64,000 nt of DNA from a virus (Duplodnaviria > Caudoviricetes), in IMG/VR virus record IMGVR_UViG_3300046786_000293, positions 192,001 through 256,000 of that record; one strand, 5' to 3'. Positions within the stretch are counted from its first letter, which is position 1. Every line of letters begins with the position of its first letter. Shown piece after piece: positions 44,779 to 62,374 of this stretch. Below the pieces are notes generated by a model that had not been told where the DNA came from, searched no databases, and saw only the letters and a list, made by a program, of their open reading frames with translations. The position numbers and the translations under genes are program-made.

Positions 44779-45093
44779 ATGTCAGACCTTGAAGAAATTG
44801 TAAACGAAGTCAAAAGAGCAACTGATTATCAAATCAACAAAAAGATGCTCAAAGAACGAATTCTAACCGAATTGCATTTGCCTTATAATAACGGATTGTT
44901 TAAAATTACACCAGAATTATTGGCTTTTGCAGCAACATGGCCCACTGAAGTGTTTTATCTTGAAGATGTTTATCAAAATCCAATTGAAATCGATAAACAA
45001 GTATTTTTAGTTAAAGCACAACAGCACTATCAAAGCGTAATGAACAACTGGCACGATCAACACAATGAACTCAAACGTATACGAAAAATCTAA
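44779..45093 (+). CDS. hypothetical protein
   Basis: 104-aa ORF, first gene of the cluster; overlaps the next gene. Confidence 0.6.
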   Translation: MSDLEEIVNEVKRATDYQINKKMLKERILTELHLPYNNGLFKITPELLAFAATWPTEVFYLEDVYQNPIEIDKQVFLVKAQQHYQSVMNNWHDQHNELKRIRKI

Positions 45094-45889
45094 AGGTGTT
45101 CTGCTTTTCGCATTTAATAGTGCCAGAGTTAATTATGTTAACATTGCAGATCAAACTAGTCAACTAATAGAAAAGCATTTAAAACTACCAATTACGTTGG
45201 TGACCGATCATGATGCAGAACCGAAATTTAATTATGATCGTATTATTAGAGCATCGTCAAAATCTGGCAATACTCGCAATGATCGAGAAAACAATCAATA
45301 TGAGTGGAAAAATTTAGATAGATATATGGCTTACGAATTAAGTCCATATGATACTACTTTATTGTGCGATGTAGATTATGCAGTATTTGATACAAGTCTC
45401 TTAAAATTATTTGATCAAGACTATGACTATAAGTTGATGTATCATACACAAACGCCTAAGGAATTTAATAATGATGAAATGGGCCCAGTTAGTTTACCAA
45501 TGGTTTGGGCTACTGTAGTTATTTTTAAAAAGACCAATCGCGCAAAAATATTTTTCGACTTAATTGGTCGTATTCAACGTAATTATAATTACTATAGGTT
45601 GTTATTTAAAATTAGAGATGGCAATTATCGAAATGATTTTGCATTTAGCATGGCTAATATTATTTCTAACGGATATACGATTCCGGAAGAAAATAATATT
45701 CCTTGGACAATGACTACCATAGATAAAAATATAGATACTGCCGAATTGAAAAATAACTTTATAGTTATAAAATATAAAGATACTACAACAGCAGATGTAT
45801 TATCAAAACAAAATTTACATATAATGGATAAAAATTTTCTAGTTAGTGAACAGTTTAAATCTATAGTAGATAAGGTTTGCAATGAGTAA
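45065..45889 (+). CDS. glycosyltransferase-like protein (GT-A fold)
   Basis: KGVLLFAFN, SPYDTTLLCDVDY (DxD), WATVVIF and RNDFAFS motifs. Confidence 0.65.
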   Translation: MNSNVYEKSKGVLLFAFNSARVNYVNIADQTSQLIEKHLKLPITLVTDHDAEPKFNYDRIIRASSKSGNTRNDRENNQYEWKNLDRYMAYELSPYDTTLLCDVDYAVFDTSLLKLFDQDYDYKLMYHTQTPKEFNNDEMGPVSLPMVWATVVIFKKTNRAKIFFDLIGRIQRNYNYYRLLFKIRDGNYRNDFAFSMANIISNGYTIPEENNIPWTMTTIDKNIDTAELKNNFIVIKYKDTTTADVLSKQNLHIMDKNFLVSEQFKSIVDKVCNE

Positions 45890-46721
45890 AGGATTTTTAA
45901 CAATTGCACAAAACACTTCGGAAGTAGATTATCTACGACTTGCATACCTACAAGCATTAAATGTCAAATCCACTCATCCCGGTGCCAAATATGCAGTAAT
46001 TGTTGATCCTGCAACTGCTAAAACATTAACTAATAGAAATAAAAAAATATTTGATCATGTTCTTACATTTGACCAGGACAATAGTGAACACAGTGACTGG
46101 AAATTGGGCAACGAATATAAAGTATTTAAATTAAGTCCTTTTAAAGAAACTATTAAAGTTGAAAGTGATTTATTGTTTACTAGAAATATAGATCATTGGT
46201 TAACTGCATTCAGGTTACAACCCATTGTACTTAGTACAGGATGTAAAACATATAGACAAGAACTAGCAACATATAGAGGTTATAGAAAGTTCTTCGATGA
46301 TAATAATTTACCCGATATATACCAAGGTTTAATGTATTTCAAGTATAGCCAAATTGCTAGTTCATTTTTTCTAACTGCACAAAGGGTATATAGAAATTGG
46401 GAATATTTAAAAAATAATGTTCTTAAAAATTGTAGAGAGAGGGAACCTAGTACAGATGTATTATATGCAGTTACCGCACAGATATTCGGAGTAGAAAATT
46501 GTACATTACCGTCTATGGATTTTATAAATTTTGTACACCTTAAACCTGGAATTAATGGGTGGGGAAATACTAGCACGAGTTGGAGAGAAATTGTAAACTA
46601 CGAACAAGAAGGAGATATGATCAGAGTCTTTAATCTAAATCAGTATAATCCTGTACATTACTATGATAAATCATTTGCTACAGAGGAACTAATAGAATAT
46701 TATGAACAAAGAATCTCATGA
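45882..46721 (+). CDS. glycosyltransferase-like protein (GT-A fold), paralog of the preceding gene
   Basis: KGFLTIAQN, SPFKETIKVESDLLF and STDVLYA motifs parallel those of 45065..45889. Confidence 0.6.
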   Translation: MSKGFLTIAQNTSEVDYLRLAYLQALNVKSTHPGAKYAVIVDPATAKTLTNRNKKIFDHVLTFDQDNSEHSDWKLGNEYKVFKLSPFKETIKVESDLLFTRNIDHWLTAFRLQPIVLSTGCKTYRQELATYRGYRKFFDDNNLPDIYQGLMYFKYSQIASSFFLTAQRVYRNWEYLKNNVLKNCREREPSTDVLYAVTAQIFGVENCTLPSMDFINFVHLKPGINGWGNTSTSWREIVNYEQEGDMIRVFNLNQYNPVHYYDKSFATEELIEYYEQRIS

Positions 46722-47085
46722 CACTAATTGGCAAGCACTAATTGCCGCATTTGACACTGGCCTGATAAAACCAGTTAAAGAGTTAATTCGAGAATACCGA
46801 TTTTATTACGACGAAAATGGTAATATAACACAAACATCTGACTGTAATTGGAATCATCCAGAATCTGGCAATTATGTAGTTGTTGACGAAATAATATTTA
46901 AAGATTGGGGAAAATATAGAGTTCGTAACGGGCAAGCGGAATTAAAACCCACAGATCCAACCACCGAAGTTCAGTTAAAGAAAAGTGATTCGGGTTATCG
47001 AGTTGTAAAAAATAATCCGGCAATTCTATTAGAAGATAACGAAAACTTAGAAAATACAGAACATTATGACCGTAGAAATAGTTGA
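46702..47085 (+). CDS. hypothetical protein
   Basis: 127-aa ORF overlapping both neighbours. Confidence 0.6.
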   Translation: MNKESHDTNWQALIAAFDTGLIKPVKELIREYRFYYDENGNITQTSDCNWNHPESGNYVVVDEIIFKDWGKYRVRNGQAELKPTDPTTEVQLKKSDSGYRVVKNNPAILLEDNENLENTEHYDRRNS

Positions 47086-47983
47086 TGTTGCAAGTTTAGA
47101 TTGTATATTTTTAACTTATGACGAACCAAAAAAAGAGGAGTTTTGGATTAAAATTCAAAACATGGTTCCCTGGGCCCTACGTGTGGACGGCATCAAGGGA
47201 TCTGATGCGGCCCACAAAGCCGCAGCTGATGCATCGTCTACGGACCGCTTTGTCCTCATCGATGGGGATAACTTGCCCGATCCAGATTTTTTTAATCTCC
47301 AATTACGCTTGGACGATAGTAATCGTGACTGTGTGTTTAGGTGGAAAGCACGTAATCACATTAACGGACTAATGTACGGTAACGGTGGCATCAGTTGCTG
47401 GACTAAAGATTATGTCTACAATATGCGTACACATGAGGCTACTGACGGCCGCAACGAAACTCTAGTAGAGTTTTGCTTTCACCCCAAATACATTCCCATG
47501 CACGATTGTTACAGCACGACGTATCCTAACGCAACCCCACAACAAGCATGGCGAGCAGGATTCCGCGAAGGGGTTAAGATGTGTCTTGATCGTGGGCGCC
47601 GACCGACACTACAAGAATTTGAGCAACAGGTACAGAAACGTAACTATGACCATTTGTGTATTTGGCAGAGTGTGGGTCGTGATGTGAACAACGGTGAGTG
47701 GGCAATCTACGGAGCAAGGTTAGGCACGTACTTAACCATGCTCACTGAGTGGGATTATACTGAAGTTCAAGACTTCGATAAGTTAAACAAAATTTGGGAA
47801 AATTTTGAACATGATGAACCACTAGGAATGACTGAACAATTAAAGAAAAGACTAGGATTACCTATTGTTGATTTAGATGCCAGTCAAAGTGCTTTCTTTA
47901 AACATCATTATACAAGAGCACATAAAAATCTAGGAACAACTATGACGGAAATGGATGTTATTAGGAAACTAGAAGGATGGTAA
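47066..47983 (+). CDS. glycosyltransferase family 2-like protein
   Basis: IFLTYDEP, GIKGSDAAHKAAA, FVLIDGDN (DxD), NGLMYGNGG and AWRAGFREGVK motifs. Confidence 0.65.
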   Translation: MTVEIVDVASLDCIFLTYDEPKKEEFWIKIQNMVPWALRVDGIKGSDAAHKAAADASSTDRFVLIDGDNLPDPDFFNLQLRLDDSNRDCVFRWKARNHINGLMYGNGGISCWTKDYVYNMRTHEATDGRNETLVEFCFHPKYIPMHDCYSTTYPNATPQQAWRAGFREGVKMCLDRGRRPTLQEFEQQVQKRNYDHLCIWQSVGRDVNNGEWAIYGARLGTYLTMLTEWDYTEVQDFDKLNKIWENFEHDEPLGMTEQLKKRLGLPIVDLDASQSAFFKHHYTRAHKNLGTTMTEMDVIRKLEGW

Positions 47984-48188
47984 AGTTATTGGTTAACGGA
48001 TGCAGTTTTAGTAGAGGACCTGGTTCTTGGCCGTATCAGTTACAGAATCTATTAGAGTTTGATCTTGTAAATCTTGCACAAGATTTGCAGAAGATGACAT
48101 ACATCCTGGAATTAATGCACATAAAGAATGGGCACAAGTTTTAAAAAGTCATATCATTCAAAATATCAAATTATATGAAAGTAGTTAA
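47977..48188 (+). pseudogene. internally deleted, frameshifted SGNH-hydrolase-like gene remnant
   Basis: The frame from ATG 47977 gives MVKLLVNGCSFSRGPGSWPYQLQNLLEFDLVNLAQ (block I). Another frame directly afterwards gives FAEDDIHPGINAHKEWAQVLKSH (block V, DxxHP). Confidence 0.7.
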
Positions 48189-49143
48189 TCTTCCTAATAT
48201 AGATTCTAAAATTTGGAATTTAGAACATAAAGTTTTAGATATAGTTTCCGCATTAATGACAGGAGATAATCTTGTCATCACTCTTAATAACGAAGGAGTA
48301 TGTGCAGAGTCTGTGGGTTTATATAAACTACTAGACGATATAAGTGAACGATTTCAAATTGATCCCAAGAAGATTTCAATTGAGACGGCAAATGCCATAG
48401 AAAAAAGCGACAAGTATAAAATCCTGCACTCTTCAATGGTACACTTGGCAAATCATAGACGTCTTCAATTTGAAAGCAATAAATCTTTTAATAAGGATTT
48501 AAAACATTTTGGTATTTTTATCGGAAGAAGTAATTGGAATAGATTATACCTTGCGGCAACAATTTTCAAAAACTTTAAAGAAAAATCCATTCTATCGTTT
48601 CATTATAACACAGATGTTAAAGATACTAACTGTGGATTCGATGCGCTTAGTTTTTTTATAGGAACAGATAATACAACAAAATTATGCAATGATTTATTAA
48701 GTCAATTTCCAATCAAACTAGATGTGGTTGATCAATATCCTATAGTAAATCCTGCATACTTTAATATTTTAAAAAAATACAACAACATTTTTTTAGATGT
48801 AGTTTGTGAAACCTACTTTACAGGTAATACATTTTTTCCAACTGAAAAAACTGTTAGGCCATTGGTATCATCTACGCCTTTTTTATTATTCGGACCAAAA
48901 CACTATCTGTCCAATTTGAAAAAATTAGGATTTAAAACATTTAGCGATTACTGGTCTGAAGATTATGATAACCATGATAAGTTATACAGGGTTCAGGAAA
49001 TAGAAAAGATATTAGTGCAGTTATCCGATAAGTCTATATCAGAGTTAGAAATCATGTATAATCATATGTTACCTATTCTGGAACACAACAAGAATCTGTT
49101 AACAGAAATAACAGAAAAGAAATTTTATGACCAATTTAAATAA
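48175..49143 (+). CDS. putative glycosyltransferase-like protein
   Basis: C-terminal FLDVVCET...FPTEKT.RP...PFLLFG....LKKLGFKTF.DYW.EDYD motif. Family assignment is inference. Confidence 0.5.
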   Translation: MKVVNLPNIDSKIWNLEHKVLDIVSALMTGDNLVITLNNEGVCAESVGLYKLLDDISERFQIDPKKISIETANAIEKSDKYKILHSSMVHLANHRRLQFESNKSFNKDLKHFGIFIGRSNWNRLYLAATIFKNFKEKSILSFHYNTDVKDTNCGFDALSFFIGTDNTTKLCNDLLSQFPIKLDVVDQYPIVNPAYFNILKKYNNIFLDVVCETYFTGNTFFPTEKTVRPLVSSTPFLLFGPKHYLSNLKKLGFKTFSDYWSEDYDNHDKLYRVQEIEKILVQLSDKSISELEIMYNHMLPILEHNKNLLTEITEKKFYDQFK

Positions 49144-50527
49144 GAGCGTGTTTTTAACCGGGGCAGAAGATGCTAAACAACGCCTGGGCCATTCTCTTTG
49201 TCTAGCCAAATGGAAACAAGTTAGCTTGCATTTAACAACCGGCCAAACAAACAGTTGTTATCATCCTCCTTTGCATCAAATACCTGCCGACCTATTAAAA
49301 GATAATCCCAGCGCATTACATAATACCCCTTACAAAAAGGAACAACGTAAGATTATGCTCAAACAAGAGCGTCCTATTGAATGTAGTTATTGTTGGACGC
49401 AAGAAGATTTAGGCAACCTAAGTGACAGACATTATCGAAGCGGTGAGCCATGGGCAGCAAAAGATTTTGATACAATCGTAAACAGTACAGGAGATGAAGA
49501 TGCAATACCCAGTTATGTGGAGGTCAATTTTAATCACGCTTGTAACCTTATGTGTAGTTATTGTAGCCCTCAGTTTAGCAGCAGTTGGGCTGACGAAGTT
49601 GCTAGGCACGGAGCATATCCCACTAGTCGTCCTCACAATGACCCCAGTCACTTTACTGGTAATAGAAAACCTATCCCCGCTCGTGAGCACAATCCATACG
49701 TTGATGCGTTTTGGGAGTGGTGGCCCACATTGTATCCTGAGCTAGAACATTTTAGGATGACCGGAGGAGAGCCTCTGATGGACAAAAATACATATCGTGT
49801 ATTTGATTACGTATTAGAAAATCCCAGTCCTAAACTGCACTTAAATGTGACCAGCAATTTTAGTGTAGAGCCCGAATTATTTGAAAAGTATCTAACCTAT
49901 GTAAAACGTTTATGTACCAATGAACCTAAGTACATAGAACATTTTATGCAATATGTAAGTTTAGACAGTACATTCGCTCAAGCAGAATATACTAGACATG
50001 GTTTAAACTTTGAACGACTTTGGGAAAATGTGAACAGATTCTTAAATGAAGTTCCTACTCGTAGCAGTCTAACATTTATTATTACTATGAATAACTTGAA
50101 TGTTACAGGATTTCAAAGTTTAATTAATAGTATATACGGACTAAGACAAATCTATAGTAAAACCTATCAACGTGTATGGTTCGATACTCCTATATTACGT
50201 AAACCAGAATGGCAAAGTTTACAATTGCTACCAGAAAGCTACGTTGACATGTTAGAAACTACATGGGCATTTATGGTCGCCAAAATGGAACAACCAGAAA
50301 ATCCTTACAAAGGTTTTAAAGACTACGAAGCACATAGACTGCAACGTGTTATCGATTGGATGAGAGAAGGTAGCAAATTAGATCCTGAATATGTTAAACT
50401 ACAGAAAGCTAATTTTTATCAATTTTTCAATGAACACGACAGACGTCGCGGGACAAACTTTGTAACTACGTTTCCCGAAATGATAGAATTTTGGAAAGAA
50501 TGTAAGTACTATGCCCAGACAAAATAA
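49127..50527 (+). CDS. radical SAM protein 1 with N-terminal SPASM/Twitch-like Cys motifs
   Basis: HACNLMCSYC, TGGEPL; N-terminal CLAKW...SCYH...ECSYCW. Confidence 0.9.
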   Translation: MTNLNKSVFLTGAEDAKQRLGHSLCLAKWKQVSLHLTTGQTNSCYHPPLHQIPADLLKDNPSALHNTPYKKEQRKIMLKQERPIECSYCWTQEDLGNLSDRHYRSGEPWAAKDFDTIVNSTGDEDAIPSYVEVNFNHACNLMCSYCSPQFSSSWADEVARHGAYPTSRPHNDPSHFTGNRKPIPAREHNPYVDAFWEWWPTLYPELEHFRMTGGEPLMDKNTYRVFDYVLENPSPKLHLNVTSNFSVEPELFEKYLTYVKRLCTNEPKYIEHFMQYVSLDSTFAQAEYTRHGLNFERLWENVNRFLNEVPTRSSLTFIITMNNLNVTGFQSLINSIYGLRQIYSKTYQRVWFDTPILRKPEWQSLQLLPESYVDMLETTWAFMVAKMEQPENPYKGFKDYEAHRLQRVIDWMREGSKLDPEYVKLQKANFYQFFNEHDRRRGTNFVTTFPEMIEFWKECKYYAQTK

Positions 50528-53326: not shown

Positions 53327-54528
53327 GTTTACCTAATACAATTTGTATGCTGCCTTGGATTAGTATAGAAGCAAGTCCTATGGGAACTGCACGACCTTGT
53401 TGTCTTGCAAGAGAAGATATTTCTGGTATTGATCTAAGACAACATACATTGCAAGATGCATATCAAAGTGAATATATGCAAAAACTGCGTCGGCAGATGC
53501 GAGCTGGTGAAAAACCACCAACTTGTAAACTCTGTTGGGATGAAGAAGCAGCTGGAAGAGATAGTAAACGTATTCACAGTCGTGCAAGATTAAAAGAGCT
53601 CTACTCATTGGTAGATTGGGAAAACGATTTACCGGATCAGTTATGGTTTTTAGATTTAAAACTCGGTAATATTTGTAATCTAAAGTGTCGTATCTGTGGA
53701 TCTTGGTCTAGTAGCAAATGGGCGGCCGAAGAAATGGATTACTTGCCCAAGGATATAGATAAAAAAACACATATTGCATATAAATGGTTAAAGCAAGGTC
53801 GGTGGCCCGAAGAAAGTCCGCAGTTTTGGGAAAACTTAAAAACACTACTTCCACAAATAAAGTATTTTGAATTTACAGGCGGCGAGCCTTGGCTAATTGA
53901 AGAACACTGGGACCTGTTACGACATGCGGTATCAACTGGTGACAGCAGTCATATTGACATTCACTACAATACCAATGCCACTGTAGATGCGTTGGGATTT
54001 GAAAAGTCTTTTTTGTGGACTCATTTTGGGCGTGTTGACATTGCATTCAGTGTTGATAATGTAAGCGATCGTTTTGAATACGAACGCTATGGGGCAGACT
54101 GGGATAAAGCAAACAAAATTATTGATGGTATACATTTTGCTAGAGATACCGATACAACAAATATAACTACGCAACTTTGTTTTACAATCAATATTCAAAA
54201 TGTATATTATCTTGATGAATTGCTTGCTTGGGCAGATACTAAAGGATTTGGCAGCATTTACTTTAATATGCTACACAGTCCAGATCACATGAGTATACGT
54301 TATATGACACCAGCGGCACAAGAGCTAGTGTTGAATAAACTCAAAACTACGTTCTGGCATAATGCTAACTATGCACAAGAAATAGATAACGTAATTAAAT
54401 TTATCGAAAATGGTGAAGGTAGCGACGGTACAGAGTTTTGTCGTAGAATGAAACAAACTGACGCATATCGTAAACAGAACTTTGCGGCCACACACCCAGA
54501 AATAGCGCAAGCAATGGGATATGAATAA
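53323..54528 (+). CDS. radical SAM protein 4
   Basis: ICNLKCRIC, TGGEPW; N-terminal ICMLPW...RPCC...TCKLCW. Confidence 0.9.
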   Translation: MSLPNTICMLPWISIEASPMGTARPCCLAREDISGIDLRQHTLQDAYQSEYMQKLRRQMRAGEKPPTCKLCWDEEAAGRDSKRIHSRARLKELYSLVDWENDLPDQLWFLDLKLGNICNLKCRICGSWSSSKWAAEEMDYLPKDIDKKTHIAYKWLKQGRWPEESPQFWENLKTLLPQIKYFEFTGGEPWLIEEHWDLLRHAVSTGDSSHIDIHYNTNATVDALGFEKSFLWTHFGRVDIAFSVDNVSDRFEYERYGADWDKANKIIDGIHFARDTDTTNITTQLCFTINIQNVYYLDELLAWADTKGFGSIYFNMLHSPDHMSIRYMTPAAQELVLNKLKTTFWHNANYAQEIDNVIKFIENGEGSDGTEFCRRMKQTDAYRKQNFAATHPEIAQAMGYE

Positions 54529-55810: not shown

Positions 55811-56903
55811 AGTAATTGTAACATTAAGAAATCCTTTAGAAAAAACAGAAACATTGGATTACATTATCAATGTCTATGAGCACGAAATGGCTCAACGTTG
55901 GTTCACAGCACTTAAAGAAATTGTTCAACAAAACAAATACTTAGAAAAGAATTTTTGTTTTCTAGGCTTTCCTGATAGTCAAAGAAATTTAGATTTCATT
56001 TGCCAAGAATTGTTTTGGGCTAAAAACGAAATTAACGATTTCTTTCGTGGCGAATATGAAATAGAAGAAAACTATTTTCCCGACACACTTAGAGATCCTG
56101 AGACGTTAATTCCCAACCAGGATCTAATGAACAAACTACACAATCATTTCGAGATTTTGCAAGGTACAGTTTGGGGACTAAGTGAATATTATAAACGGGC
56201 TGATTATACTACAAAGTTTGCGATTAGACAGTTAAATAATTTGTGTCACGAAGCAGAAAGTTTAATGCTGAGTCAACGTAAAAAGGCTACATTGCCTGAA
56301 TGGGTTAGGCCTAGCCAGATTACTACATTTTTAAATGCCACCAGATATGAATTCCCAACAGATTATAAAACAACATTTGCAGAATCTCGATACGATAGAA
56401 AGTTCGGGGAAGTGTATTTACATTGGACGCAAATTGGTAAAACGTTGTATGAAGTATATAGAGACGAGCAAGGTGTCGATATTGACTCCAGTGTATGTGA
56501 TGCTATTACTCATCTACGCTACTATAGCGGGGAGTTTGACATCGAATGGGCGCAGGATGTTTGCTATAATGGCCCGCACCCTTGGTACACCAAAGAAATG
56601 TCCGGCTTTAGAGCATGGCTTGAAAGAAATGGATTCAACCCAGGAGATACTCAATATAACTTCGGCTATCACCCTGTGGGCCAAGTTGACTTGCAAGCAA
56701 GTTTTGGGACTACCCACTATAGTGAAGTATGGCCGATCTTATCAAGGTACTTGGACATCTATTCGATCCAATGTGACGATGGATCAGGGAATGTTTTATA
56801 CTCCGTATACCCCTACACTTGGACTGATAAAGACTACTACGAACAACAAATCGAAAGATTAAAACCTGGTTACGATTACAGTAGTAGACAAGCCAATAAA
56901 TAA
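55803..56903 (+). CDS. hypothetical protein
   Basis: 366-aa ORF translationally coupled to rSAM 5; no motif recognised. Confidence 0.7.
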   Translation: MNKVIVTLRNPLEKTETLDYIINVYEHEMAQRWFTALKEIVQQNKYLEKNFCFLGFPDSQRNLDFICQELFWAKNEINDFFRGEYEIEENYFPDTLRDPETLIPNQDLMNKLHNHFEILQGTVWGLSEYYKRADYTTKFAIRQLNNLCHEAESLMLSQRKKATLPEWVRPSQITTFLNATRYEFPTDYKTTFAESRYDRKFGEVYLHWTQIGKTLYEVYRDEQGVDIDSSVCDAITHLRYYSGEFDIEWAQDVCYNGPHPWYTKEMSGFRAWLERNGFNPGDTQYNFGYHPVGQVDLQASFGTTHYSEVWPILSRYLDIYSIQCDDGSGNVLYSVYPYTWTDKDYYEQQIERLKPGYDYSSRQANK

Positions 56904-56907: not shown

Positions 56908-57009
56908 ATGAAATGGCTTAAAAATTTATACTACAGAATTAAGTTGGAAATCAATTATCGTCGCAAACTTAAAGAATTGCGAAAACGCGATCCGTTTATT
57001 TATAAATGA
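56908..57009 (+). CDS. 33-aa basic peptide (MKWLKNLYYRIKLEINYRRKLKELRKRDPFIYK)
   Basis: Not in the track. Preceded by ATAAATA (56896-56902); its TGA overlaps the next ATG (ATGA coupling). Confidence 0.75.
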   Translation: MKWLKNLYYRIKLEINYRRKLKELRKRDPFIYK

Positions 57010-57650
57010 AACTTTTAACAATAGGTGATAGTTTTACCTACGGGGAAGAACTGCTGGATATTAATAACGCTTGGCCGTATATATTAGGTCAACGTATTGG
57101 TTATGAGGTTACAAATTTAGGAAATCCTGCAAGCAGTAACGATAGAATAGTCAGGGTGTTATTAGAGTATCTAATAGAAAATTGCAATCACACTGATCTT
57201 GTTATTATAGGTTGGAGTTTATTAGGCCGTGCAGAATTTGCAGACGAACTTGGTTATTATGATATATGGCCCGGAGCTGGTAGATATTACGGTGATCACA
57301 GAAATCAAGTAGTAAAATATATTTCCACGTATCATAGCAGAGAAGCATACTTTAGAAAGTATCTTCAACAAATTATTTTAGTACAAGAATTTTTAAAGCA
57401 TCGAAATATAAAATATGTTATGTTAGATGTTTTAGCAAATGATTATTATAGAAAGCAACATCAATTTTCATGGAACAACTACGAAAATCAAATTGACCAA
57501 ACGAATTATATAGATTTCAATAAGAGTGGAATGTGTGAATGGGCAAGCGGCACTCCGACGGGATCGCAAGGACACTTTCTTGAAGAGGGTCATCGCATTG
57601 TAGCAAATCGAATTTATGAACATATTAGGCATCTCGGCTGGGTTTCATGA
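57006..57650 (+). CDS. SGNH/GDSL hydrolase-like protein (possible acyltransferase/esterase)
   Basis: LLTIGDSFTYG (block I), NLGNPASSNDRI, C-terminal GHFLEEGH. Confidence 0.75.
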   Translation: MKLLTIGDSFTYGEELLDINNAWPYILGQRIGYEVTNLGNPASSNDRIVRVLLEYLIENCNHTDLVIIGWSLLGRAEFADELGYYDIWPGAGRYYGDHRNQVVKYISTYHSREAYFRKYLQQIILVQEFLKHRNIKYVMLDVLANDYYRKQHQFSWNNYENQIDQTNYIDFNKSGMCEWASGTPTGSQGHFLEEGHRIVANRIYEHIRHLGWVS

Positions 57651-59097
57651 CGCTGCTGCAACTGTAGTCGACAAACATGGAGATATTCTGTTTGCAGGTC
57701 ACAGCGAACGGTACAGTAAAAAGAAAAACGATTCTGACATTTGTGCAAAACTAATGTGGGACGTAATGGATTGCGGAGATATAGATACTGTAGCATATTA
57801 TGAGAAACCTGTCTTAAAACAATTACGTCAACTTTACTCTGGCCAAGGAATTGAATGGAATAAACTTTCTACCTATTCTATTTTACGAAATCAATGTGCG
57901 CCCTTATTTCTTAATGGTATAAAAATTAAAAGTTATAATCATCATTTAAGTCATGCAGCCGCGGGGTTTCAAACAAGTACATTCGATAGGGCTACAGTAG
58001 TAGTAATTGATGCCATCGGCGAATGGGATACTATTAGTATATGGGGCGCAGAGTATGAAAGCGGCCTAGCACAATATAAAAAGTTATGGAGTCAAAAATA
58101 TCCGCATAGTATTGGTTTGTTTTATAGTGCCATGACAGAACGTGTTGGACTTAAACCTAATGAAGAAGAATATATTATGATGGGCATGGCTGCATATGGT
58201 GCGCCTGTGTTCACCGATTTGTTCAAATCTAAATTTTTATCCAACGAATGGCAAATTAAATTTAAAGAAAATCTTCACGCCGGAATCGAACAAAAATATT
58301 TGTCTTATGTTGGAGATATGGATCTCGCAGCCAGCGCACAAGACCTAACACAAGACTTGGTATTAAATATAATGCGCCGCGCTAAAGATTTTAATTGGAG
58401 CGATAATTTAGTTTATATGGGCGGTGTTGCTCTTAATTGTAGTATTAATAGTAGATTAGGGGAATATTTTGATAATATTTGGATTATGCCTAACCCTGGT
58501 GATGCTGGGTCTAGTCTTGGTGCCGCCGCACTTGCTTATGGCCGTAGGCTTAATTGGCGCAATGCTTATTTGGGTCACTGTATCCCTGGTCATTACCCTG
58601 TTAATGCTGCCTTGGATGCTTTATTGCACGATAGTATTGTTGGTGTGGCTAATGGTAGGGCCGAATTCGGACCAAGAGCCTTAGGTAACCGTAGTTTATT
58701 AGCAGACCCTAGAGGAAATGAAATTAAGGACAAAGTAAATGAAATCAAACGTAGACAGAAATTCAGACCCTTTGCGCCAGTTATTCTGGAGGAGTTGGCT
58801 AGCCAGTATTTTGATTTGCCTAGTGGTTGGGATAACAATAGGTATATGCAGTCGGTCTCTACTTGTAGGCGCCCTGACTTATTTCCTGCTATCGTTCATC
58901 ATGACGGCACTAGTCGTGTCCAAACTGTACCAAAAGATGGATCAGGAATACGCGAGTTACTCGAACGTTGGTATATTTTAACAGACTGTCCCATGCTGTT
59001 AAATACTAGTCTAAACATTAGAGGCGAGCCCATGATTAACGATAGGGCAGACGCTGACAGATTCGAACAACTATATGGAGTGAAAGTATTATCATGA
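57616..59097 (+). CDS. carbamoyltransferase (NodU/CmcH family)
   Basis: ILGISAGFHDAAA, ERYSKKK, HHLSHAA, GGVALN, GRAEFGPRALGNRS, RQKFRPFAP, LLNTSLN. Confidence 0.95.
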   Translation: MNILGISAGFHDAAATVVDKHGDILFAGHSERYSKKKNDSDICAKLMWDVMDCGDIDTVAYYEKPVLKQLRQLYSGQGIEWNKLSTYSILRNQCAPLFLNGIKIKSYNHHLSHAAAGFQTSTFDRATVVVIDAIGEWDTISIWGAEYESGLAQYKKLWSQKYPHSIGLFYSAMTERVGLKPNEEEYIMMGMAAYGAPVFTDLFKSKFLSNEWQIKFKENLHAGIEQKYLSYVGDMDLAASAQDLTQDLVLNIMRRAKDFNWSDNLVYMGGVALNCSINSRLGEYFDNIWIMPNPGDAGSSLGAAALAYGRRLNWRNAYLGHCIPGHYPVNAALDALLHDSIVGVANGRAEFGPRALGNRSLLADPRGNEIKDKVNEIKRRQKFRPFAPVILEELASQYFDLPSGWDNNRYMQSVSTCRRPDLFPAIVHHDGTSRVQTVPKDGSGIRELLERWYILTDCPMLLNTSLNIRGEPMINDRADADRFEQLYGVKVLS

Positions 59098-59891
59098 AAC
59101 AATCGAAAAGAATTTTAATTATGGGTCTGCCAGGCGCAGGCAAAACATATTTGGCCGAAAGACTAAAAACTCAATTAGAATCTACTGGCCAATCTGTTAG
59201 TTGGTTAAATGCCGACGAAGTGCGTCGACATTTCAATGACTGGGACTTTAGCAAAGAAGGCCGTATTAGACAAAGTTTGCGTATGCGTGAACTAGCAGAT
59301 GACGCTAATACAGACTATTGTATTGTAGACTTTGTTGCGCCTTTAATCGAAATGCGTAATAACTTTAAAGCAGACTGGACTATTTGGATGGATACCATCG
59401 ATAAAGGTCGATTTGAAGATACCAACAAAGTTTTTACGGCGCCTGAATTATATGATTTTCGCATTACTGAACAAAATGCAGAAAAGTGGGCAGACTTCAT
59501 CGCACAGCACATAATCGATAATCGACGTCGTTCTGTATTCGATTGGCAAAAAGAAACAGTACAAATGTTAGGACGCTGGCAACCTTGGCATGCAGGCCAT
59601 CGAGCATTGTTTGAACGTGCAATTAGAAAAACTGGTCAGGTAGTTATTCAAATACGTGACTGCCAAGGATGGCAAGGTTCCAATCCCTTTGCCATTGAAC
59701 AAGTTAAAAACTTTATTCGTAGAGACCTGGATCCGATTTATCAAGGCCAATATGAAATTCAAGTTGTGCCAAACATTGTTAACATAACATATGGACGCGA
59801 TGTTGGATACAAAATTGAACAAGAGACATTCGACGAATCTGTTACTAGCATTAGCGCAACTAAAATTCGAAAAGAACTTGGTCTAAAATGA
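59094..59891 (+). CDS. adenylylsulfate-kinase-like domain fused to an HxGH nucleotidyltransferase domain
   Basis: GLPGAGKT, WLNADEVR..DWDFS.EGR, DFVAP (APS kinase-like), then GRWQPWHAGH. Confidence 0.8.
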   Translation: MKQSKRILIMGLPGAGKTYLAERLKTQLESTGQSVSWLNADEVRRHFNDWDFSKEGRIRQSLRMRELADDANTDYCIVDFVAPLIEMRNNFKADWTIWMDTIDKGRFEDTNKVFTAPELYDFRITEQNAEKWADFIAQHIIDNRRRSVFDWQKETVQMLGRWQPWHAGHRALFERAIRKTGQVVIQIRDCQGWQGSNPFAIEQVKNFIRRDLDPIYQGQYEIQVVPNIVNITYGRDVGYKIEQETFDESVTSISATKIRKELGLK

Positions 59892-60112
59892 ACAAGTACC
59901 ATATCAGGTTTAATACCAAACATAACGGTTCTAAATTAGTTTGGCGTATATTCGAGAATGGGGTAGAACATTTGGCAGAGGATGTTCGCTTAATAGGCGA
60001 AACTTTTACAGAATGTACTCATGAGTATGGCGAAACAAAATGGAATATCGCATGCCACGGAAGACTAGTATGGGTCGACAAAGTGGCTGTTATTGTTACA
60101 GGAAAAGATTAA
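59888..60112 (+). CDS. hypothetical protein
   Basis: 74-aa ORF coupled to the upstream gene. Confidence 0.6.
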   Translation: MNKYHIRFNTKHNGSKLVWRIFENGVEHLAEDVRLIGETFTECTHEYGETKWNIACHGRLVWVDKVAVIVTGKD

Positions 60113-60274
60113 ATGATAGAAAAGAAAAACAATTTCATGGACGCTATTAAAGCAGCCCAGTTAGCTAAAACTAAAGTACCACAGAGTAAAACTGCTCAAG
60201 TACAAGAAGCTAAGTTTAAAAATCAAGTACAATCAAACAAACCCACACGTAGAGCAGCAGGTCGTGGCGGATGA
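60113..60274 (+). CDS. 53-aa basic protein ending ...TRRAAGRGG
   Basis: Not in the track. Fills the gap exactly: ATG directly follows the previous TAA, and its TGA overlaps the next ATG. Confidence 0.7.
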   Translation: MIEKKNNFMDAIKAAQLAKTKVPQSKTAQVQEAKFKNQVQSNKPTRRAAGRGG

Positions 60275-60705
60275 AACCAAAACATTTACGTGCTTTTATG
60301 CAAACTGCTCAAACGTTTGCGGAATGCAGTACTGCTGAACGTGCTAAAGTCGGTGCTATTATTGTTAAAGACGACCGCATAATCAGTATTGGTTACAACG
60401 GCATGCCATCAGGTTGGGATAATACTTGTGAGAATGTTATCGGTTACACCAATAACGAACCAGTATTAAAAACCAAACCTGAGGTGCTTCACGCAGAAGC
60501 TAACGCTTTGGCTAAGGTCGCCCGTAGCAGCGAAAGTAGCGAAGGTGCTTATATGTTTATTACATACAGTCCTTGTCTTGATTGTGCCAAATTGATTTAT
60601 CAAAGTGGCATAAAGAAAGTATACTATGGCATACAGTACAGAGATACTACAGGATTGGATTTCTTATCTAGATGTGATATTAAAGTAGAACAATTGGATG
60701 TTTGA
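60271..60705 (+). CDS. dCMP deaminase
   Basis: VGAIIV..DRIISIGYNG, HAEANA and SPCLDC zinc motifs. Confidence 0.93.
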   Translation: MKPKHLRAFMQTAQTFAECSTAERAKVGAIIVKDDRIISIGYNGMPSGWDNTCENVIGYTNNEPVLKTKPEVLHAEANALAKVARSSESSEGAYMFITYSPCLDCAKLIYQSGIKKVYYGIQYRDTTGLDFLSRCDIKVEQLDV

Positions 60706-62374
60706 CATATTTTATACTGGCCCTAAGCCAAATTTATTTGCATTCGAAAAACCAGCAGCCTCTCTAGTAGAGGCTGATGCACTATGCCGAACTGAATATT
60801 TTTGGTATATTAACGGCTTAAACGATTATACTAACTTTGACTTTTGGTGGCGCCCTTCTACATACGAAGCAGACTATACACATGTTTGGCCTAGCCAATG
60901 GCAGCAAAATGGCGGCACAATGCTAGTACCCAAAGGTACAACTGAACATAAATGGCACTGGCACTGCCCCATTAACGATGGACTAGTTCGTAGAGAAAAA
61001 TCAACTGACATCTTCTACATGGATTTCATGAATTCCGGAAGCCGAGATCAATTCGAAGAACTTAAAATACGTTGGCCTAATATTAAATCTACACGCTATG
61101 TATCAGATCATTTAAATGTACTCAAACGCATAGTAAATTTGGCTACTACAGAATATGTTTGGGTCATTAGTAGTGTTTGTGACTATAGTGAATTTGATTT
61201 CACTTGGCATCCGGCACAATGGCATGAAGAAATGATTCATTGTTTTTCTGATGGAGTGCAGGAGCGCGGCGACACGTTTTATATTCACGTAGAATCATTT
61301 AAGCGACAAATGGTTGAACTTGAACTCTTAGATTGGTTCAATGTTATTAATTATTGTAAAGATCAATTAGTCACGAGATTTGAATCCCCTATAGTTGTAT
61401 ACAACGGGGACGATTTAATTTCGGTTATTAAAAACCATAAGTTCGAAACTCCTTACGCATTTTTTGTTAATCATAAAGATACATCTGTCTTCAGAGTTTA
61501 TAATAATTGCTTATGGGCAGAAAAAGACCGCATTGTAGAGAGTTACTCATCTAGTAATGCTGTCTGTGCCGTACCCCGGGATGTAAAGGCATATTTAGAC
61601 AAGCAAATCTACGATTATCCCTACGTAATCACGCCTAAACCAGGGCAAAACGTCTATTACGAAGAGCCTTTAGATGTCGTCTATATAAGCAATGGGGAAC
61701 CAGACGCTGAGCGTTGGTATAATCATTTGTCTGACGTTTTGGATCAAGAGGAAAAAGGTTACCCGAATTTACGATTTACTAATACCCTTAAACGTGTACA
61801 AAATGTCAACGGGCGAATGGCAGCTTATCGCGCAGCAGCAGAGCGCAGCGAAACACCTTGGTTCTTTGCGGTGTTTGCTAAACTAGAAGTTGACATCGAA
61901 TTTGATTGGCGCTGGCAACCAGACTATTTCCAAGAGCCTAAACACTATATCTTCCATGCCCAGAATCCTGTAAACGGGCTAGTCTACGGACACCAAGCAA
62001 TGATTGCTTATAATAAGCGTTTGGTATTGGAAACTATAGAAAGCGGATTGGACTTTACTCTAAGCAAAGCACACGAAGTGGTTCCATTGCTATCAGGCAC
62101 AGCACACTATGACCAAGATGCTTGGACTACGTGGCGTACAGCATTCCGTGAAGTTGTTAAGTTAAAGCATTTTAGTATTGGGCAGCCCAGTGTAGAAACT
62201 GATTTCAGGCTTAAAAAATGGCTAACTGTAGGTAATGGTGAGTTCGGGGAATGGAGTATTCGTGGTGCCGCAGATGCCATTGAATACTATAACGCAGTTG
62301 ACGGTGAGTATGATAAACTAATGCTCAGTTACGAATGGGCCTGGCTCAAACAGTATTATGACGCTAAATACTGA
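60698..62374 (+). CDS. multi-module glycosyltransferase-like protein
   Basis: Repeated MFDIFY / DIFYMDF / DVVYIS modules with TEYFW and DF.W.P..W motifs. The C-terminal module is paralogous to 47066..47983 (NGLVYG, WRTAFREVVKL). Confidence 0.6.
   Translation: MFDIFYTGPKPNLFAFEKPAASLVEADALCRTEYFWYINGLNDYTNFDFWWRPSTYEADYTHVWPSQWQQNGGTMLVPKGTTEHKWHWHCPINDGLVRREKSTDIFYMDFMNSGSRDQFEELKIRWPNIKSTRYVSDHLNVLKRIVNLATTEYVWVISSVCDYSEFDFTWHPAQWHEEMIHCFSDGVQERGDTFYIHVESFKRQMVELELLDWFNVINYCKDQLVTRFESPIVVYNGDDLISVIKNHKFETPYAFFVNHKDTSVFRVYNNCLWAEKDRIVESYSSSNAVCAVPRDVKAYLDKQIYDYPYVITPKPGQNVYYEEPLDVVYISNGEPDAERWYNHLSDVLDQEEKGYPNLRFTNTLKRVQNVNGRMAAYRAAAERSETPWFFAVFAKLEVDIEFDWRWQPDYFQEPKHYIFHAQNPVNGLVYGHQAMIAYNKRLVLETIESGLDFTLSKAHEVVPLLSGTAHYDQDAWTTWRTAFREVVKLKHFSIGQPSVETDFRLKKWLTVGNGEFGEWSIRGAADAIEYYNAVDGEYDKLMLSYEWAWLKQYYDAKY

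What the first reader, a model, noticed from the sequence alone, without database searches (positions are those of the whole stretch)
44779..62374. ~17-kb phage-encoded tailoring pathway (glycosyltransferases, 5 radical SAM enzymes, SGNH, carbamoyltransferase, APS kinase/NTase) abutting the tail-fibre genes
A tightly coupled operon with overlapping start and stop codons encodes about five glycosyltransferase-like proteins, five rSAM enzymes, SGNH proteins, a NodU/CmcH carbamoyltransferase and an activated-donor enzyme. This resembles a complex glycan or natural-product tailoring cluster rather than normal phage metabolism. Its position right after the fibre genes, and a late promoter (56896) driving the second half, suggest decoration of virion proteins with an elaborately modified (carbamoylated, acylated, sulfated, radical-rearranged) glycan. 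DNA hypermodification or host-surface remodelling are alternatives. I know of no characterised pathway with this composition.
Basis: partly seen in the sequence, partly recalled or inferred. Interest (0 to 1): 0.78.

Follow-up and report, generated by a model that had tools for sequence, protein, structure and literature searches.

The report
Phage radical-SAM sugar-tailoring operon
A freshwater jumbo phage carries, right after its tail-fibre genes, a conserved 17.6-kb operon of soluble sugar-transferring enzymes, five radical SAM enzymes of an uncharacterised family, a carbamoyl-adding enzyme and a tiny conserved peptide; it most likely builds a chemically decorated sugar structure, but its product and target have never been tested.

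Summary
Window 44779-62374 (a 338.5-kb IMG/VR T4-like jumbo phage) is one co-directional chain of 21 ORFs, and 16 of 21 junctions overlap. All five radical SAM genes are full-length members of NCBIfam NF033640 (N-terminal twitch rSAM), a family with no characterised member that I could find. Also confirmed are a two-domain O-carbamoyltransferase, one SGNH/DUF6071 protein and an APS-kinase-like/HxGH nucleotidyltransferase fusion. One glycosyltransferase-like call is supported by a fold model (47066, GT-A). The others rest on motifs: 45065 and 45882 (GT8-like), 48175 (GT10-like) and 60698 (a GT-A-like module). ORF 55803 is not a glycosyltransferase.

The block is colinear in 31 of 38 related viral contigs. 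It is split into two modules in the cultured Ralstonia phage RsoM2USA. It has its own conserved sigma-70-type promoter. A 33-aa peptide ending in DPFIYK is conserved even in distant clusters.

My best reading is a cytoplasmic glycan-building and tailoring pathway. The acceptor is unproven: fibre proteins, the peptide, the host surface and DNA all remain possible.

The arrangement corresponds to the published 'host recognition cluster' of aquatic T4-like phages. This scan had already flagged the same kind of cluster in at least 17 other genomes.

The parts
44729..44757 (+). Sigma-70-type promoter (TTGACA-17-TAATAT) with an embedded palindrome, about 20 nt before the first gene
   Evidence: 10 of 12 consensus positions. 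An equivalent TTGACA/TTGACT ... TAnnAT element with an inverted repeat stands before the 44779 homolog in most relatives.
44779..45093 (+). 104-aa protein of unknown function, first gene of the operon
   Evidence: No Pfam, PHROG or NCBIfam hit. Conserved at 46-78% in the main clade and 26-34% in distant loci and RsoM2USA gp354.
45065..45889 (+). GT8/GT77-like nucleotide-sugar transferase candidate (paralog 1)
   Evidence: Invariant DxD (D102, D104) in 31 sequences. Atlas feature hits at 0.95-0.96 to clusters carrying PF03407, PF01501 or PF11051. No direct Pfam hit.
45882..46721 (+). GT8/GT77-like candidate (paralog 2)
   Evidence: BLASTP to 45065: 23% identity, E 9e-5. Matches the A3 profile at E 7.5e-17.
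46702..47085 (+). 127-aa protein of unknown function
   Evidence: No family hit. 27-44% identical in relatives.
47066..47983 (+). GT-A-fold glycosyltransferase-like protein (virus-only family, DGDN motif)
48175..49143 (+). GT10-like (fucosyltransferase-motif) protein, one of six paralogs in the genome, variable in relatives
   Evidence: Paralogs found. Family alignment A6 has invariant E224 and K225. The only PDB hit is alpha-1,3-fucosyltransferase A, E 0.56, aligned on the ...E..(x)..TEK...P..G motif. No Pfam hit.
49127..50527 (+). N-twitch radical SAM 1
   Evidence: NF033640 at 318 bits. Cys motifs.
50511..51860 (+). N-twitch radical SAM 2
   Evidence: NF033640 at 301 bits. 51% identical to RsoM2USA gp202.
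51842..53326 (+). N-twitch radical SAM 3
   Evidence: NF033640 at 377 bits, SPASM at 51.5 bits. 6956 homologs at E<=1e-5 among the 8000 candidates scored, the best 68-80% identical.
53323..54528 (+). N-twitch radical SAM 4
   Evidence: NF033640 at 337 bits. 54 related viral loci found.
54521..55810 (+). N-twitch radical SAM 5
   Evidence: NF033640 at 290 bits.
55803..56903 (+). 366-aa protein of an uncharacterised family: cyclophilin-like barrel with an inserted four-helix bundle
56894..56900 (+). ATAAATA late-promoter-type box 7 nt before the peptide ORF
   Evidence: Present in 12 of 31 relatives.
56908..57009 (+). 33-aa basic peptide ending ...LRKRDPFIYK
   Evidence: Length is 33 aa in 31 of 32 sequences (one of 35). 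Invariant residues are E14, I15, Y17, R18, L21, E23, D28, P29, F30 and Y32. Synonymous codon differences exceed non-synonymous ones (4222 vs 2597). The same C-terminal motif occurs in L045, L050, L056, L064 and in an unannotated ORF of RsoM2USA.
57006..57650 (+). SGNH/GDSL-type esterase or acyltransferase (DUF6071)
   Evidence: PF19547 at 46 bits and PF00657 at 23.7 bits. Invariant G7, S9 and H190/H196, with D8 in the consensus GDS. ATGA overlap with the peptide ORF.
57616..59097 (+). NodU/CmcH/TobZ-type O-carbamoyltransferase
   Evidence: PF02543 at 133 bits and PF16861 at 157.5 bits. 47% identical to RsoM2USA gp199. Homologs in 138 phage records, mostly cyanophages.
59094..59891 (+). Fusion of an APS-kinase-like P-loop kinase (residues 1-100) and an HxGH/ISxT nucleotidyltransferase (residues 150-265)
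   Evidence: PF01583 at 45.5 bits. NMNAT-type NCBIfam hits down to E 8.6e-7, all below their cut-offs. Motifs GLPGAGKT, WHAGH and SISATKIR read.
59888..60112 (+). 74-aa protein of unknown function
   Evidence: No hit. 47-91% identical in 10 relatives.
60271..60705 (+). dCMP/cytidine deaminase; probably nucleotide metabolism lodged inside the block
   Evidence: PF00383 at 84.9 bits. Conserved at this place in 20 relatives.
60698..62374 (+). 558-aa protein whose C-terminal 230 residues match the 47066 GT-A family without a clear DxD; three FD(F/W)xW(R/H/Q)P repeats
   Evidence: A1 profile positions 11-245 match residues 325-555, E 1e-15. Motifs at residues 47, 166 and 402. BLASTP to 47066 at E 6e-8.
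42828..44732 (+). Two paralogous Ser/Thr/Gly-rich fibre-like proteins immediately upstream; candidate acceptors, not part of the operon
   Evidence: 42% identical to each other. Sequences. Kept upstream of the GT genes in distant loci L051-L053. No family hit.

Best explanation
Proposed function: this is a self-contained operon that assembles and chemically tailors a glycan in the infected cell's cytoplasm. It lies in the fibre-proximal accessory region of a T4-like jumbo phage and has its own promoter.

Inferred steps:
1. The kinase-nucleotidyltransferase fusion makes or 3'-phosphorylates an NDP-activated donor.
2. The GT8-like pair, the GT-A enzyme, the GT10-like enzyme and possibly the 558-aa GT-A-like protein transfer sugars to an acceptor.
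3. The five diverged N-twitch radical SAM enzymes each carry out one radical step on the sugars or nucleotide-sugars, such as epimerisation, dehydration/deoxygenation, C-methylation or C-C bond formation.
4. The SGNH enzyme and the O-carbamoyltransferase finish the product with O-acyl and O-carbamoyl groups.

Acceptor: the most likely one is a phage-made protein. The best candidates are the Ser/Thr-rich fibre proteins encoded just upstream. The conserved 33-aa DPFIYK peptide is the second candidate.

Shown here: gene content, enzyme family membership, catalytic motifs, conservation and linkage. Inferred: every chemical step and the acceptor.
For: 1. The cluster is tight and co-directional, with overlapping junctions.
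2. Five enzymes are intact members of one rSAM family, 20-30% identical to each other. This divergence suggests that they are not redundant.
3. There is one fold-supported GT-A plus three motif-level GT families.
4. The carbamoyltransferase is of the sugar O-carbamoylating NodU/CmcH type, and the SGNH protein keeps its catalytic Ser and His.
5. Relatives add classical nucleotide-sugar enzymes in or beside the block: an NAD-dependent epimerase/dehydratase, a DegT aminotransferase and an AMP-binding enzyme.
6. The block is colinear in 31 of 38 main-clade loci. The rSAMs (60-85% identity) are better conserved than the neighbouring fibre-like genes (31-61%).
7. The order fibre genes, small gene, two GT8-like genes, GT-A, rSAM persists in distant phages and in RsoM2USA next to virion proteins gp361, gp359 and gp356.
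8. GT10-like and 55803-like paralogs sit beside other rSAM genes elsewhere in the genome, so the GT-rSAM pairing recurs.
9. No cluster protein has a hydrophobic segment (maximum KD19 1.48), and there is no flippase, polymerase or initiating transferase in the cluster.
10. The best structural match of 47066 is a viral enzyme that glycosylates a capsid protein.
Against: - No experimental or sequence evidence identifies the acceptor.
- GT8-like, GT10-like and 60698 assignments rest on motifs and weak scores. The Pfam GT8, PF03407 and GT10 models do not hit them.
- No member of NF033640 is characterised, so 'acts on sugars' is inferred from neighbours only. By sequence the nearest solved rSAMs are generic core matches: SkfB, a tetraether synthase, viperin and BlsE, at E 3e-6 or weaker.
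- A cellular Bacteriovoracaceae MAG has a tandem array of four N-twitch rSAMs (five rSAM genes in all) with no GT among the neighbours scanned, so the family may not need glycans.
- The operon has a host-type promoter, whereas the fibre genes carry late boxes. This fits enzymes made before assembly, but it fits host reprogramming equally well.
Confidence: 0.5

Rival explanations
1. Host-surface remodelling. The enzymes hijack the host's lipid-linked LPS O-chain or capsule intermediates and alter the cell surface during infection, to block superinfection by competing phages. This is what was proposed for the glycosyltransferases of the 'host recognition cluster' of pelagimyophages.
For: - Published interpretation for the equivalent region, where GT8 is the most represented family and rSAM cassettes come and go (PMC7029224).
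- The operon has a conserved sigma-70-type promoter, suggesting early or middle expression by host polymerase.
- O-carbamoylation and O-acylation are typical decorations of surface polysaccharides (established knowledge of the NodU/CmcH and SGNH families).
Against: - No membrane-associated protein, flippase, polymerase, ligase or initiating phosphoglycosyl transferase is in the cluster.
- The block is more conserved than the fibre genes. That is unexpected if it tracks variable host surfaces.
- The phage is a lytic-type T4-like jumbo phage. In the related RsoM2USA the latent period is 270 min (PMC8504454 abstract).
Confidence: 0.18
2. Peptide-based product. The 33-aa DPFIYK peptide is the precursor or scaffold. 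The radical SAM enzymes modify its C-terminal Phe-Ile-Tyr region, and the glycosyltransferases, SGNH enzyme and carbamoyltransferase decorate it. The result would be a glycosylated RiPP or a cofactor-like molecule, analogous in logic to mycofactocin or the glycocins.
For: - The peptide is truly coding. It is 33 aa long in 31 of 32 sequences, and synonymous changes exceed non-synonymous ones.
- Its C-terminal [KR][KR][QR]DP[FY][IV]Y motif survives in clusters whose enzymes are only 21-38% identical. It also occurs in RsoM2USA, where it travels with rSAM2, the SGNH protein and the carbamoyltransferase.
- In L050 it directly follows the only N-twitch rSAM.
- SPASM/twitch rSAMs are the classic peptide maturases (established).
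- SunS/ThuS peptide glycosyltransferases are among the structural matches of 47066.
- A cellular tandem array of this rSAM family lacks glycosyltransferases.
Against: - No RRE/PqqD-like domain, leader peptidase or exporter was detected.
- No single rSAM subfamily co-occurs with the peptide. RsoM2USA has only types 1 and 2, while L050 has a type 3-5 enzyme.
- Internal aromatic positions are not conserved in distant copies.
- GT-A matches are generic to the fold.
Confidence: 0.12
3. Free small molecule. The operon makes a diffusible aminoglycoside-, nucleoside- or sugar-like metabolite that acts on the host or on competitors, or acts against a defence system, and is not attached to any macromolecule.
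For: - The combination of twitch-type rSAM, carbamoyltransferase, kinase/NTase and glycosyltransferases recalls aminoglycoside and nucleoside-antibiotic clusters (BtrN, TobZ, BlsE; established knowledge).
- BlsE and viperin appear among the weak sequence matches.
- Relatives add DegT aminotransferase and epimerase genes.
Against: - No exporter or self-resistance gene is present.
- The conserved position behind the fibre genes is unexplained.
- The matches to solved rSAMs are to the generic core only.
Confidence: 0.1
4. DNA hypermodification. The glycosyltransferases and tailoring enzymes decorate a modified base in phage DNA to evade restriction.
For: - A dCMP deaminase lies inside the block.
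- Kinases, rSAM enzymes and glycosyltransferases take part in known thymidine and hydroxymethylcytosine hypermodification pathways (established knowledge; Pyle et al. 2024, cited in PMC12619734).
Against: - The genome has a single thymidylate-synthase homolog. It scores 365 bits over the full Pfam model, as a canonical ThyA would, and there is no second hydroxymethylase-like copy.
- No TET/JBP match was found, though that search also rang in no control genome, so this is weak.
- No DNA-binding or base-flipping domain was seen in the cluster.
- The first module stays with the fibre genes rather than the replication genes, in RsoM2USA too.
Confidence: 0.07

Closest known systems
NCBIfam NF033640, N_Twi_rSAM (twitch domain-containing radical SAM protein)
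   Same: All five enzymes, and three more in the genome, score well above the curated cut-off over the full model. They have the defining order: a Cys-rich twitch/SPASM-like module first, then the CxxxCxxC core.
   Different: The family is only a sequence model. I found no characterised member, no solved structure and no paper. Here the enzymes occur as a five-paralog array inside a phage glycosyltransferase operon.
Host recognition cluster (HRC) of pelagimyophages and cyanomyophages (Zaragoza-Solas et al. 2020, PMC7029224)
   Same: Both lie in a T4-like aquatic myophage, downstream of a giant structural protein and the tail fibres. Both contain glycosyltransferases (GT8 prominent), 'LPS-related' sugar enzymes and radical SAM cassettes. 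The window shows the same order.
   Different: The HRC is described as hypervariable and under-recruiting, and its GTs were assigned to host O-chain modification. Here the GT/rSAM block is a conserved, colinear, separately promoted operon, better conserved than the fibres. The paper gives no analysis of the rSAM family, the carbamoyltransferase module or the peptide.
Virus-encoded virion glycosylation: PBCV-1 A64R (PDB 2P6W) and mycobacteriophage capsid/tail-tube glycosylation (Freeman et al. 2023, cited)
   Same: Soluble virus-encoded GT-A enzymes are encoded with or near structural genes. A64R is the best structural match of 47066.
   Different: Sequence identity is about 14% and the match covers only the GT-A core. 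Those systems have no radical SAM enzymes, carbamoyltransferase or SGNH partner. Glycosylation of this phage's virion is untested.
Mycofactocin and glycocin pathways (short peptide + rSAM-SPASM maturase and/or peptide glycosyltransferase)
   Same: A short conserved peptide with a near-C-terminal Tyr sits next to SPASM/twitch-type rSAMs and GT-A enzymes. SunS/ThuS are among the fold matches.
   Different: There is no RRE chaperone, peptidase or MftC/SunS orthology. The auxiliary-cluster domain is N-terminal. The resemblance is one of logic only.
Aminoglycoside-type tailoring (BtrN twitch rSAM dehydrogenase, TobZ O-carbamoyltransferase)
   Same: A twitch-type rSAM and a two-domain TobZ/NodU/CmcH carbamoyltransferase work on sugars in one cluster (established knowledge). 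The carbamoyltransferase domains are confirmed here.
   Different: BtrN has its twitch domain at the C-terminus and is not retrieved by the profile search. No 2-deoxystreptamine genes are present.

Membership tests
NF033640 N_Twi_rSAM | Full-length score above the curated cut-off of 170 bits | tested here: met
   290, 301, 318, 337 and 377 bits for the five ORFs. The genome-wide scan gives 8 members.
NF033640 N_Twi_rSAM | Cys-rich twitch/SPASM-like module N-terminal to the radical SAM core | tested here: met
   PF13186 SPASM at residues 8-108, before PF04055 at about 114-333. Four invariant N-terminal Cys (C8, C27, C68, C71 in rSAM4 numbering).
Radical SAM superfamily | CxxxCxxC cluster motif and GGE SAM-binding motif | tested here: met
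   C118, C122, C125 and G186-G187-E188 are invariant in all 8 paralogs.
NodU/CmcH/TobZ O-carbamoyltransferases | Both Carbam_trans_N (PF02543) and Carbam_trans_C (PF16861) domains above cut-off | tested here: met
   133.1 and 157.5 bits.
NodU equivalog (NF041651) | Score above the 1000-bit equivalog cut-off | tested here: not met
   134.5 bits. It belongs to the superfamily and is not a NodU ortholog.
SGNH/GDSL hydrolases | Block I GDS serine and block V histidine; family model hit | tested here: met
   GDSFTYGEE with G7 and S9 invariant and D8 in the consensus. H190 and H196 are invariant. PF19547 scores 46.2 bits (cut-off 27) and PF00657 scores 23.7 (cut-off 23.6).
Adenylyl-sulfate kinase (CysC, TIGR00455) | Equivalog-level score | tested here: not met
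   35.7 bits against a cut-off of 138.7. Pfam PF01583 gives 45.5 bits but covers only profile positions 2-94 of 152. It is APS-kinase-like, not CysC.
PAPS synthase-type fusion (APS kinase + ATP sulfurylase) | C-terminal ATP sulfurylase domain of about 390 aa | tested here: not met
   The C-terminal domain is about 115 aa. It carries HxGH and ISxT motifs, and its weak hits are of the NMNAT/cytidylyltransferase type.
GT-A fold glycosyltransferases (ORF 47066) | Rossmann-like GT-A core with a DxD metal/nucleotide-sugar motif | tested here: met
GT8 (PF01501) / Nucleotid_trans (PF03407) for ORFs 45065 and 45882 | Match to the family model | tested here: inconclusive
   No Pfam hit, not even in the one-genome search at E<=1. 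Atlas feature similarity of 0.95-0.96 to clusters where 11-51% of members carry these families. DxD is invariant.
GT10 alpha-1,3-fucosyltransferases (PF00852) for ORF 48175 | Match to the family model; the FxxxFEN...TEK...VP.v.G donor-binding motif | tested here: inconclusive
   PF00852 hits another ORF of the genome, not this family. The A6 profile's only PDB hit is FucTA at E 0.56, aligned exactly on the E...TEK...P..G motif. E224 and K225 are invariant.
Host recognition cluster (PMC7029224) | Island with tail fibres, GTs and rSAM cassettes downstream of the giant structural protein in a T4-like myophage | tested here: met
   T4-type portal and baseplate genes, a 4450-aa protein, fibre-like genes, then the operon.
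Host recognition cluster (PMC7029224) | Hypervariable, non-syntenic content between close relatives | tested here: not met
   31 of 38 related loci are colinear, and the enzymes are 60-85% identical. Only 48175, the SGNH gene and the kinase region vary.
RiPP biosynthetic cluster | Precursor peptide plus maturase with a recognition element (RRE), peptidase and exporter | tested here: inconclusive
   A candidate peptide is present and conserved. No PqqD/RRE, peptidase or transporter family was detected by Pfam or NCBIfam. Structure-based RRE detection was not done.

The most novel reading that the evidence does not exclude
Two readings remain open. In the first, the conserved 33-aa DPFIYK peptide is the scaffold. 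The N-twitch radical SAM enzymes and the phage glycosyltransferases build on it a glycosylated, carbamoylated, peptide-derived product, which would be a phage-encoded 'glyco-RiPP' or cofactor-like molecule. In the second, the same enzymes carry out radical carbohydrate chemistry on a glycan attached to the tail fibres. Either reading would give the first function for the NF033640 family and a new class of phage-made glycoconjugate.
Probability: 0.15. Interest if true: 0.85.

Novelty: new variant of a known kind. Interest (0 to 1): 0.6.

Why it matters
Radical SAM enzymes with an N-terminal twitch domain are very abundant in aquatic phage metagenomes: 6956 homologs of one paralog passed E<=1e-5 among the 8000 candidates scored. 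None has a known reaction.

Here five of them sit in a conserved operon with sugar transferases and decorating enzymes, which gives a concrete context for finding their substrates. If the product coats the fibres or virion, it would extend phage virion glycosylation to Gram-negative-infecting T4-like jumbo phages. So far that is known from mycobacteriophages and chloroviruses. It would also add radical chemistry to the process. If the product alters the host surface, it would be a mechanism of superinfection exclusion in abundant freshwater and marine phages.

The cultured Ralstonia phage RsoM2USA carries both modules, so the question is testable at the bench.

Tried and rejected
- Megablast of the block against 50,697 phage records found no match.
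- Single-sequence and profile searches of PDB sequences with 47066, A1, A3 and A4 found nothing significant.
- hhalign of the GT8-like family against the 47066 family aligned the DxD regions, but at a probability of only 5.7%.
- The protein Atlas search for 55803 gave no usable hit.
- A profile search with A3 over 5.8 billion proteins returned only unannotated viral homologs among the 120 listed.
- Complex prediction of the 33-aa peptide against rSAM4, GT-A 47066 and the SGNH protein gave 'no answer' (score 0.00, controls not run). This says nothing for or against binding.
- The T4 late-promoter octamer TATAAATA is not enriched: 3 hits against 11 expected. The shorter ATAAATA is the relevant box.
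- I tested whether this is a group A amoC-phage (333-338 kb, bioRxiv 10.64898/2026.06.18.733297). No AmoC match was found, so I dropped the idea.
- Literature searches for 'N-terminal twitch', 'twitch domain-containing radical SAM', and jumbo phage plus radical SAM found no paper on this family or operon.
- Contigs from RNA libraries: run X13 has eight 151-218-nt contigs identical to parts of 48175, rSAM1, rSAM2, the SGNH gene and the kinase gene. DNA carry-over cannot be excluded, so I do not count this as evidence of transcription. The uncovered parts mean nothing.

Full report
**Setting.** The window is G000:192001-256000 of a 338,510-bp IMG/VR virus record judged 97% complete. It encodes a T4-type portal, Rad50/Mre11-like proteins and T4-type baseplate proteins. 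Its baseplate wedge protein is 35-40% identical to those of Rak2-like and other jumbo myophages such as Atu_ph07, SCTP-2, XaC1 and CBB. After the baseplate genes come a 4450-aa protein with YHYH and FG-GAP repeats, fibre-like genes (39414-42831, PHROG tail-fibre hits) and two paralogous Ser/Thr/Gly-rich 310-aa proteins (42828-44732). The finding starts 46 nt after these.

**Anatomy.** From 44779 to 62374 there are 20 ORFs plus a 33-aa ORF, all on the + strand. Sixteen of 21 junctions overlap by 4-35 nt. None of the proteins has a hydrophobic segment that could span a membrane. A TTGACA-17-TAATAT element lies at 44729-44757. An equivalent -35/-10 pair with an embedded inverted repeat precedes the first gene in most relatives. 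The phage's late-type box is ATAAATA: 35 of its 59 genome occurrences lie within 35 nt upstream of a same-strand gene, against about 1.4 expected. This box is absent there. It does occur 7 nt before the 33-aa ORF, but in only 12 of 31 relatives. The operon is therefore its own transcription unit. It is probably read by host-type polymerase and is not an extension of the late fibre operon.

**The radical SAM array.**
- The five genes at 49127-55810 score 290-377 bits on NCBIfam NF033640 'N_Twi_rSAM' (cut-off 170) over the whole model.
- Pfam sees a SPASM-type Cys module in front of the radical SAM core.
- The genome holds three more members elsewhere.
- All eight keep four N-terminal Cys, CxxxCxxC and GGE, so all look catalytically competent.
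- The five are only 20-30% identical to each other, yet each is 60-85% identical to its ortholog in related phages. They are old, non-redundant paralogs under strong constraint.
- A profile of the family finds only generic core matches among solved structures: an unnamed rSAM, SkfB, a tetraether synthase, viperin, BlsE and MoaA, at E 3e-6 or weaker.
- No paper on the family was found.

**Glycosyltransferase-like genes.**
- ORF 47066 belongs to a virus-only family. With a 32-sequence alignment it folds confidently (pLDDT 88.9).
  - D66-G-D68-N is invariant.
- ORFs 45065 and 45882 are paralogs with an invariant DxD. Their feature-space neighbours include clusters carrying PF03407, PF01501 or PF11051. 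No HMM hit supports this.
- ORF 48175 has five paralogs in the genome and further copies interleaved in relatives' rSAM arrays.
  - Its family profile has a single PDB hit, alpha-1,3-fucosyltransferase A, at E 0.56. The hit aligns on the GT10 donor-binding motif E...TEK...P..G. The level is suggestive, not significant.
  - The Pfam GT10 model hits a different ORF of the genome.
- ORF 60698 matches the 47066 family over its last 230 residues (E 1e-15) and carries three FD(F/W)xW(R/H/Q)P repeats.
  - It has no Foldseek match in the PDB and relatives of unknown function in AFDB.
  - A paralog abuts another rSAM gene at G000 131-133 kb.

**Decorating enzymes.**
- ORF 57616 has both domains of the NodU/CmcH/TobZ O-carbamoyltransferases but is not a NodU ortholog. 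Homologs occur in 138 phage records, mostly cyanophages and pelagiphages.
- ORF 57006 is an SGNH/DUF6071 protein with an invariant catalytic Ser and His.
- ORF 59094 fuses an APS-kinase-like P-loop domain to a small HxGH/ISxT nucleotidyltransferase.
  - It fails the CysC equivalog cut-off, and its second domain is far too small for an ATP sulfurylase, so 'PAPS synthase' is not supported.
  - A role in making a 3'-phosphorylated NDP-linked donor is an inference.
- ORF 60271 is a dCMP deaminase.

**A conserved peptide.** The 33-aa ORF at 56908-57009 overlaps the SGNH start codon (ATGA).
- In 31 relatives it keeps its length in all but one. It has ten invariant residues, concentrated in ...LEIxYRxKLxELRKRDPFIYK, and shows more synonymous than non-synonymous codon differences.
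- The C-terminal [KR][KR][QR]DP[FY][IV]Y motif recurs in distant clusters (L045, L050, L056, L064).
- It also occurs in an unannotated 36-aa ORF of Ralstonia phage RsoM2USA, between gp201 and gp200.
- It is thus a core element of these clusters, whether as substrate, scaffold or small subunit.

**Conservation.**
- One paralog retrieves 54 viral loci. In 38 main-clade loci the 12 core genes are colinear in 31, and all 12 lie within the fetched stretch in 21.
- Long contigs of 365-374 kb carry the same order.
- Relatives add an NAD-dependent sugar epimerase/dehydratase, a DegT aminotransferase and an AMP-binding enzyme.
- Distant loci, with rSAMs 21-38% identical, keep this order: fibre-like pair, 44779-like gene, two GT8-like genes, GT-A, one to several N-twitch rSAMs.
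- In RsoM2USA the system is split.
  - gp354-gp348 (small protein, two GT8-like, GT-A, rSAM1 ortholog, short GT-A) stay beside the fibres and the giant gp361.
  - gp202 (rSAM2 ortholog, 51% identical), gp201, the peptide, gp200 (SGNH) and gp199 (carbamoyltransferase, 47% identical) lie 90 kb away.
  - Several neighbours of the first module (ORF361, ORF359, ORF356) were found in RsoM2USA virions by MS (PMC8504454).
- A Bacteriovoracaceae MAG contig of 118 kb with housekeeping genes has a tandem array of five rSAM genes, four of which match the N-twitch profile, and no glycosyltransferase among the neighbours scanned.

**Interpretation.** The gene content, its conservation and the recurrence of GT-rSAM neighbourhoods in the genome point to a cytoplasmic pathway that assembles and tailors a glycan. 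I give this 0.5.

The acceptor is open:
- Fibre or virion proteins are favoured by the deep conservation of the position behind the fibre genes, by the absence of any membrane or export component, and by the A64R-like fold.
- Host-surface remodelling (0.18) is the published reading of the equivalent 'host recognition cluster' (PMC7029224) and fits the host-type promoter.
- A peptide-based product (0.12) is raised by the DPFIYK peptide and by the cellular array that lacks glycosyltransferases.
- A free metabolite (0.10) and DNA hypermodification (0.07) are less likely. The genome has one canonical-looking ThyA (365 bits) and no detectable TET/JBP (a weak negative).

**Known versus new.** The arrangement corresponds to the HRC of pelagi- and cyanomyophages, where GT8 genes and radical SAM cassettes were noted but not analysed. 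A T4-like environmental genome with 12 rSAM genes was also noted in 2017 (PMC5332604). This scan has flagged the same kind of cluster in at least 17 other genomes, with similar conclusions. Four points are not in the papers I could find:
- the assignment of the rSAMs to NF033640;
- the conserved operon structure with its own promoter;
- the two-module split in a cultured phage;
- the conserved DPFIYK peptide.

No reaction of the pathway has been characterised.

**Habitat.** Near-identical DNA occurs in several freshwater and estuary metagenomes from different studies. Short identical contigs occur in one RNA library, which does not prove transcription.

Noticed in passing
L069 (RsoM2USA MG752970) record 125889-125998, minus strand: An unannotated 36-aa ORF (MIQKLVNWLKSFFVKEKTEAEKIRDQIRKQDPFIYK) lies between gp201 and gp200. 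It is the homolog of the window's 33-aa peptide.
   Followed up: yes
window 44700-44778 and the equivalent place in L009-L046: A conserved sigma-70-like promoter has a perfect or near-perfect inverted repeat spanning the -10 region (for example ataggtatatattataatagtatatacctat). It looks like an operator and hints at regulated early or middle expression of the operon.
   Followed up: partly
whole genome G000: ATAAATA is a strong candidate late-promoter box. Thirty-five of its 59 occurrences lie within 35 nt upstream of a same-strand gene (about 1.4 expected). In the window it precedes 16002, 22600, 39414, 41362, 56908 and 62910.
   Followed up: yes
window 7940-9697 (-): A 585-aa fusion of an N-terminal radical SAM domain (41.5 bits) with a C-terminal short-chain dehydrogenase-like region. 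It sits between the Rad50-like gene and structural genes.
   Followed up: no
G000 116178-135116 (L065), minus strand: A second rSAM-rich region holds two non-twitch rSAM genes (123319-124854 and 131007-132167). Each lies near GT10-like paralogs of 48175 (116178, 124986, 134094), and a 55803 paralog sits at 132160. A RecA-like gene is at 129913.
   Followed up: partly
G000 160899-161750 (-): A 283-aa ORF that matches Pfam Glyco_transf_10 above the cut-off (28.1 bits). It is a bona fide GT10-type enzyme, separate from the 48175 family.
   Followed up: no
L073 8986-15011 (Bacteriovoracaceae MAG, 118-kb contig): A cellular tandem array of five rSAM genes, four matching the N-twitch profile. It is flanked by a pseudouridine synthase and a PrkA kinase, with no glycosyltransferase among the neighbours scanned.
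   Followed up: partly
L071 (2.5-kb contig binned as uncultured Polynucleobacter sp.): It encodes a protein 66% identical to rSAM3. It is probably a phage fragment binned with a Polynucleobacter MAG, and at most a weak hint to the host.
   Followed up: no
window 26021-39373 (+): A 4450-aa ORF with YHYH, FG-GAP and a weak CBM5/12 match. It is positionally equivalent to the giant VrlC-type protein of T4-like aquatic phages and to RsoM2USA gp361, which is a virion protein.
   Followed up: partly
window 62375-62896: The ORF right after the operon has no homolog in any of the 54 related loci, so the conserved block ends at 62374.
   Followed up: partly
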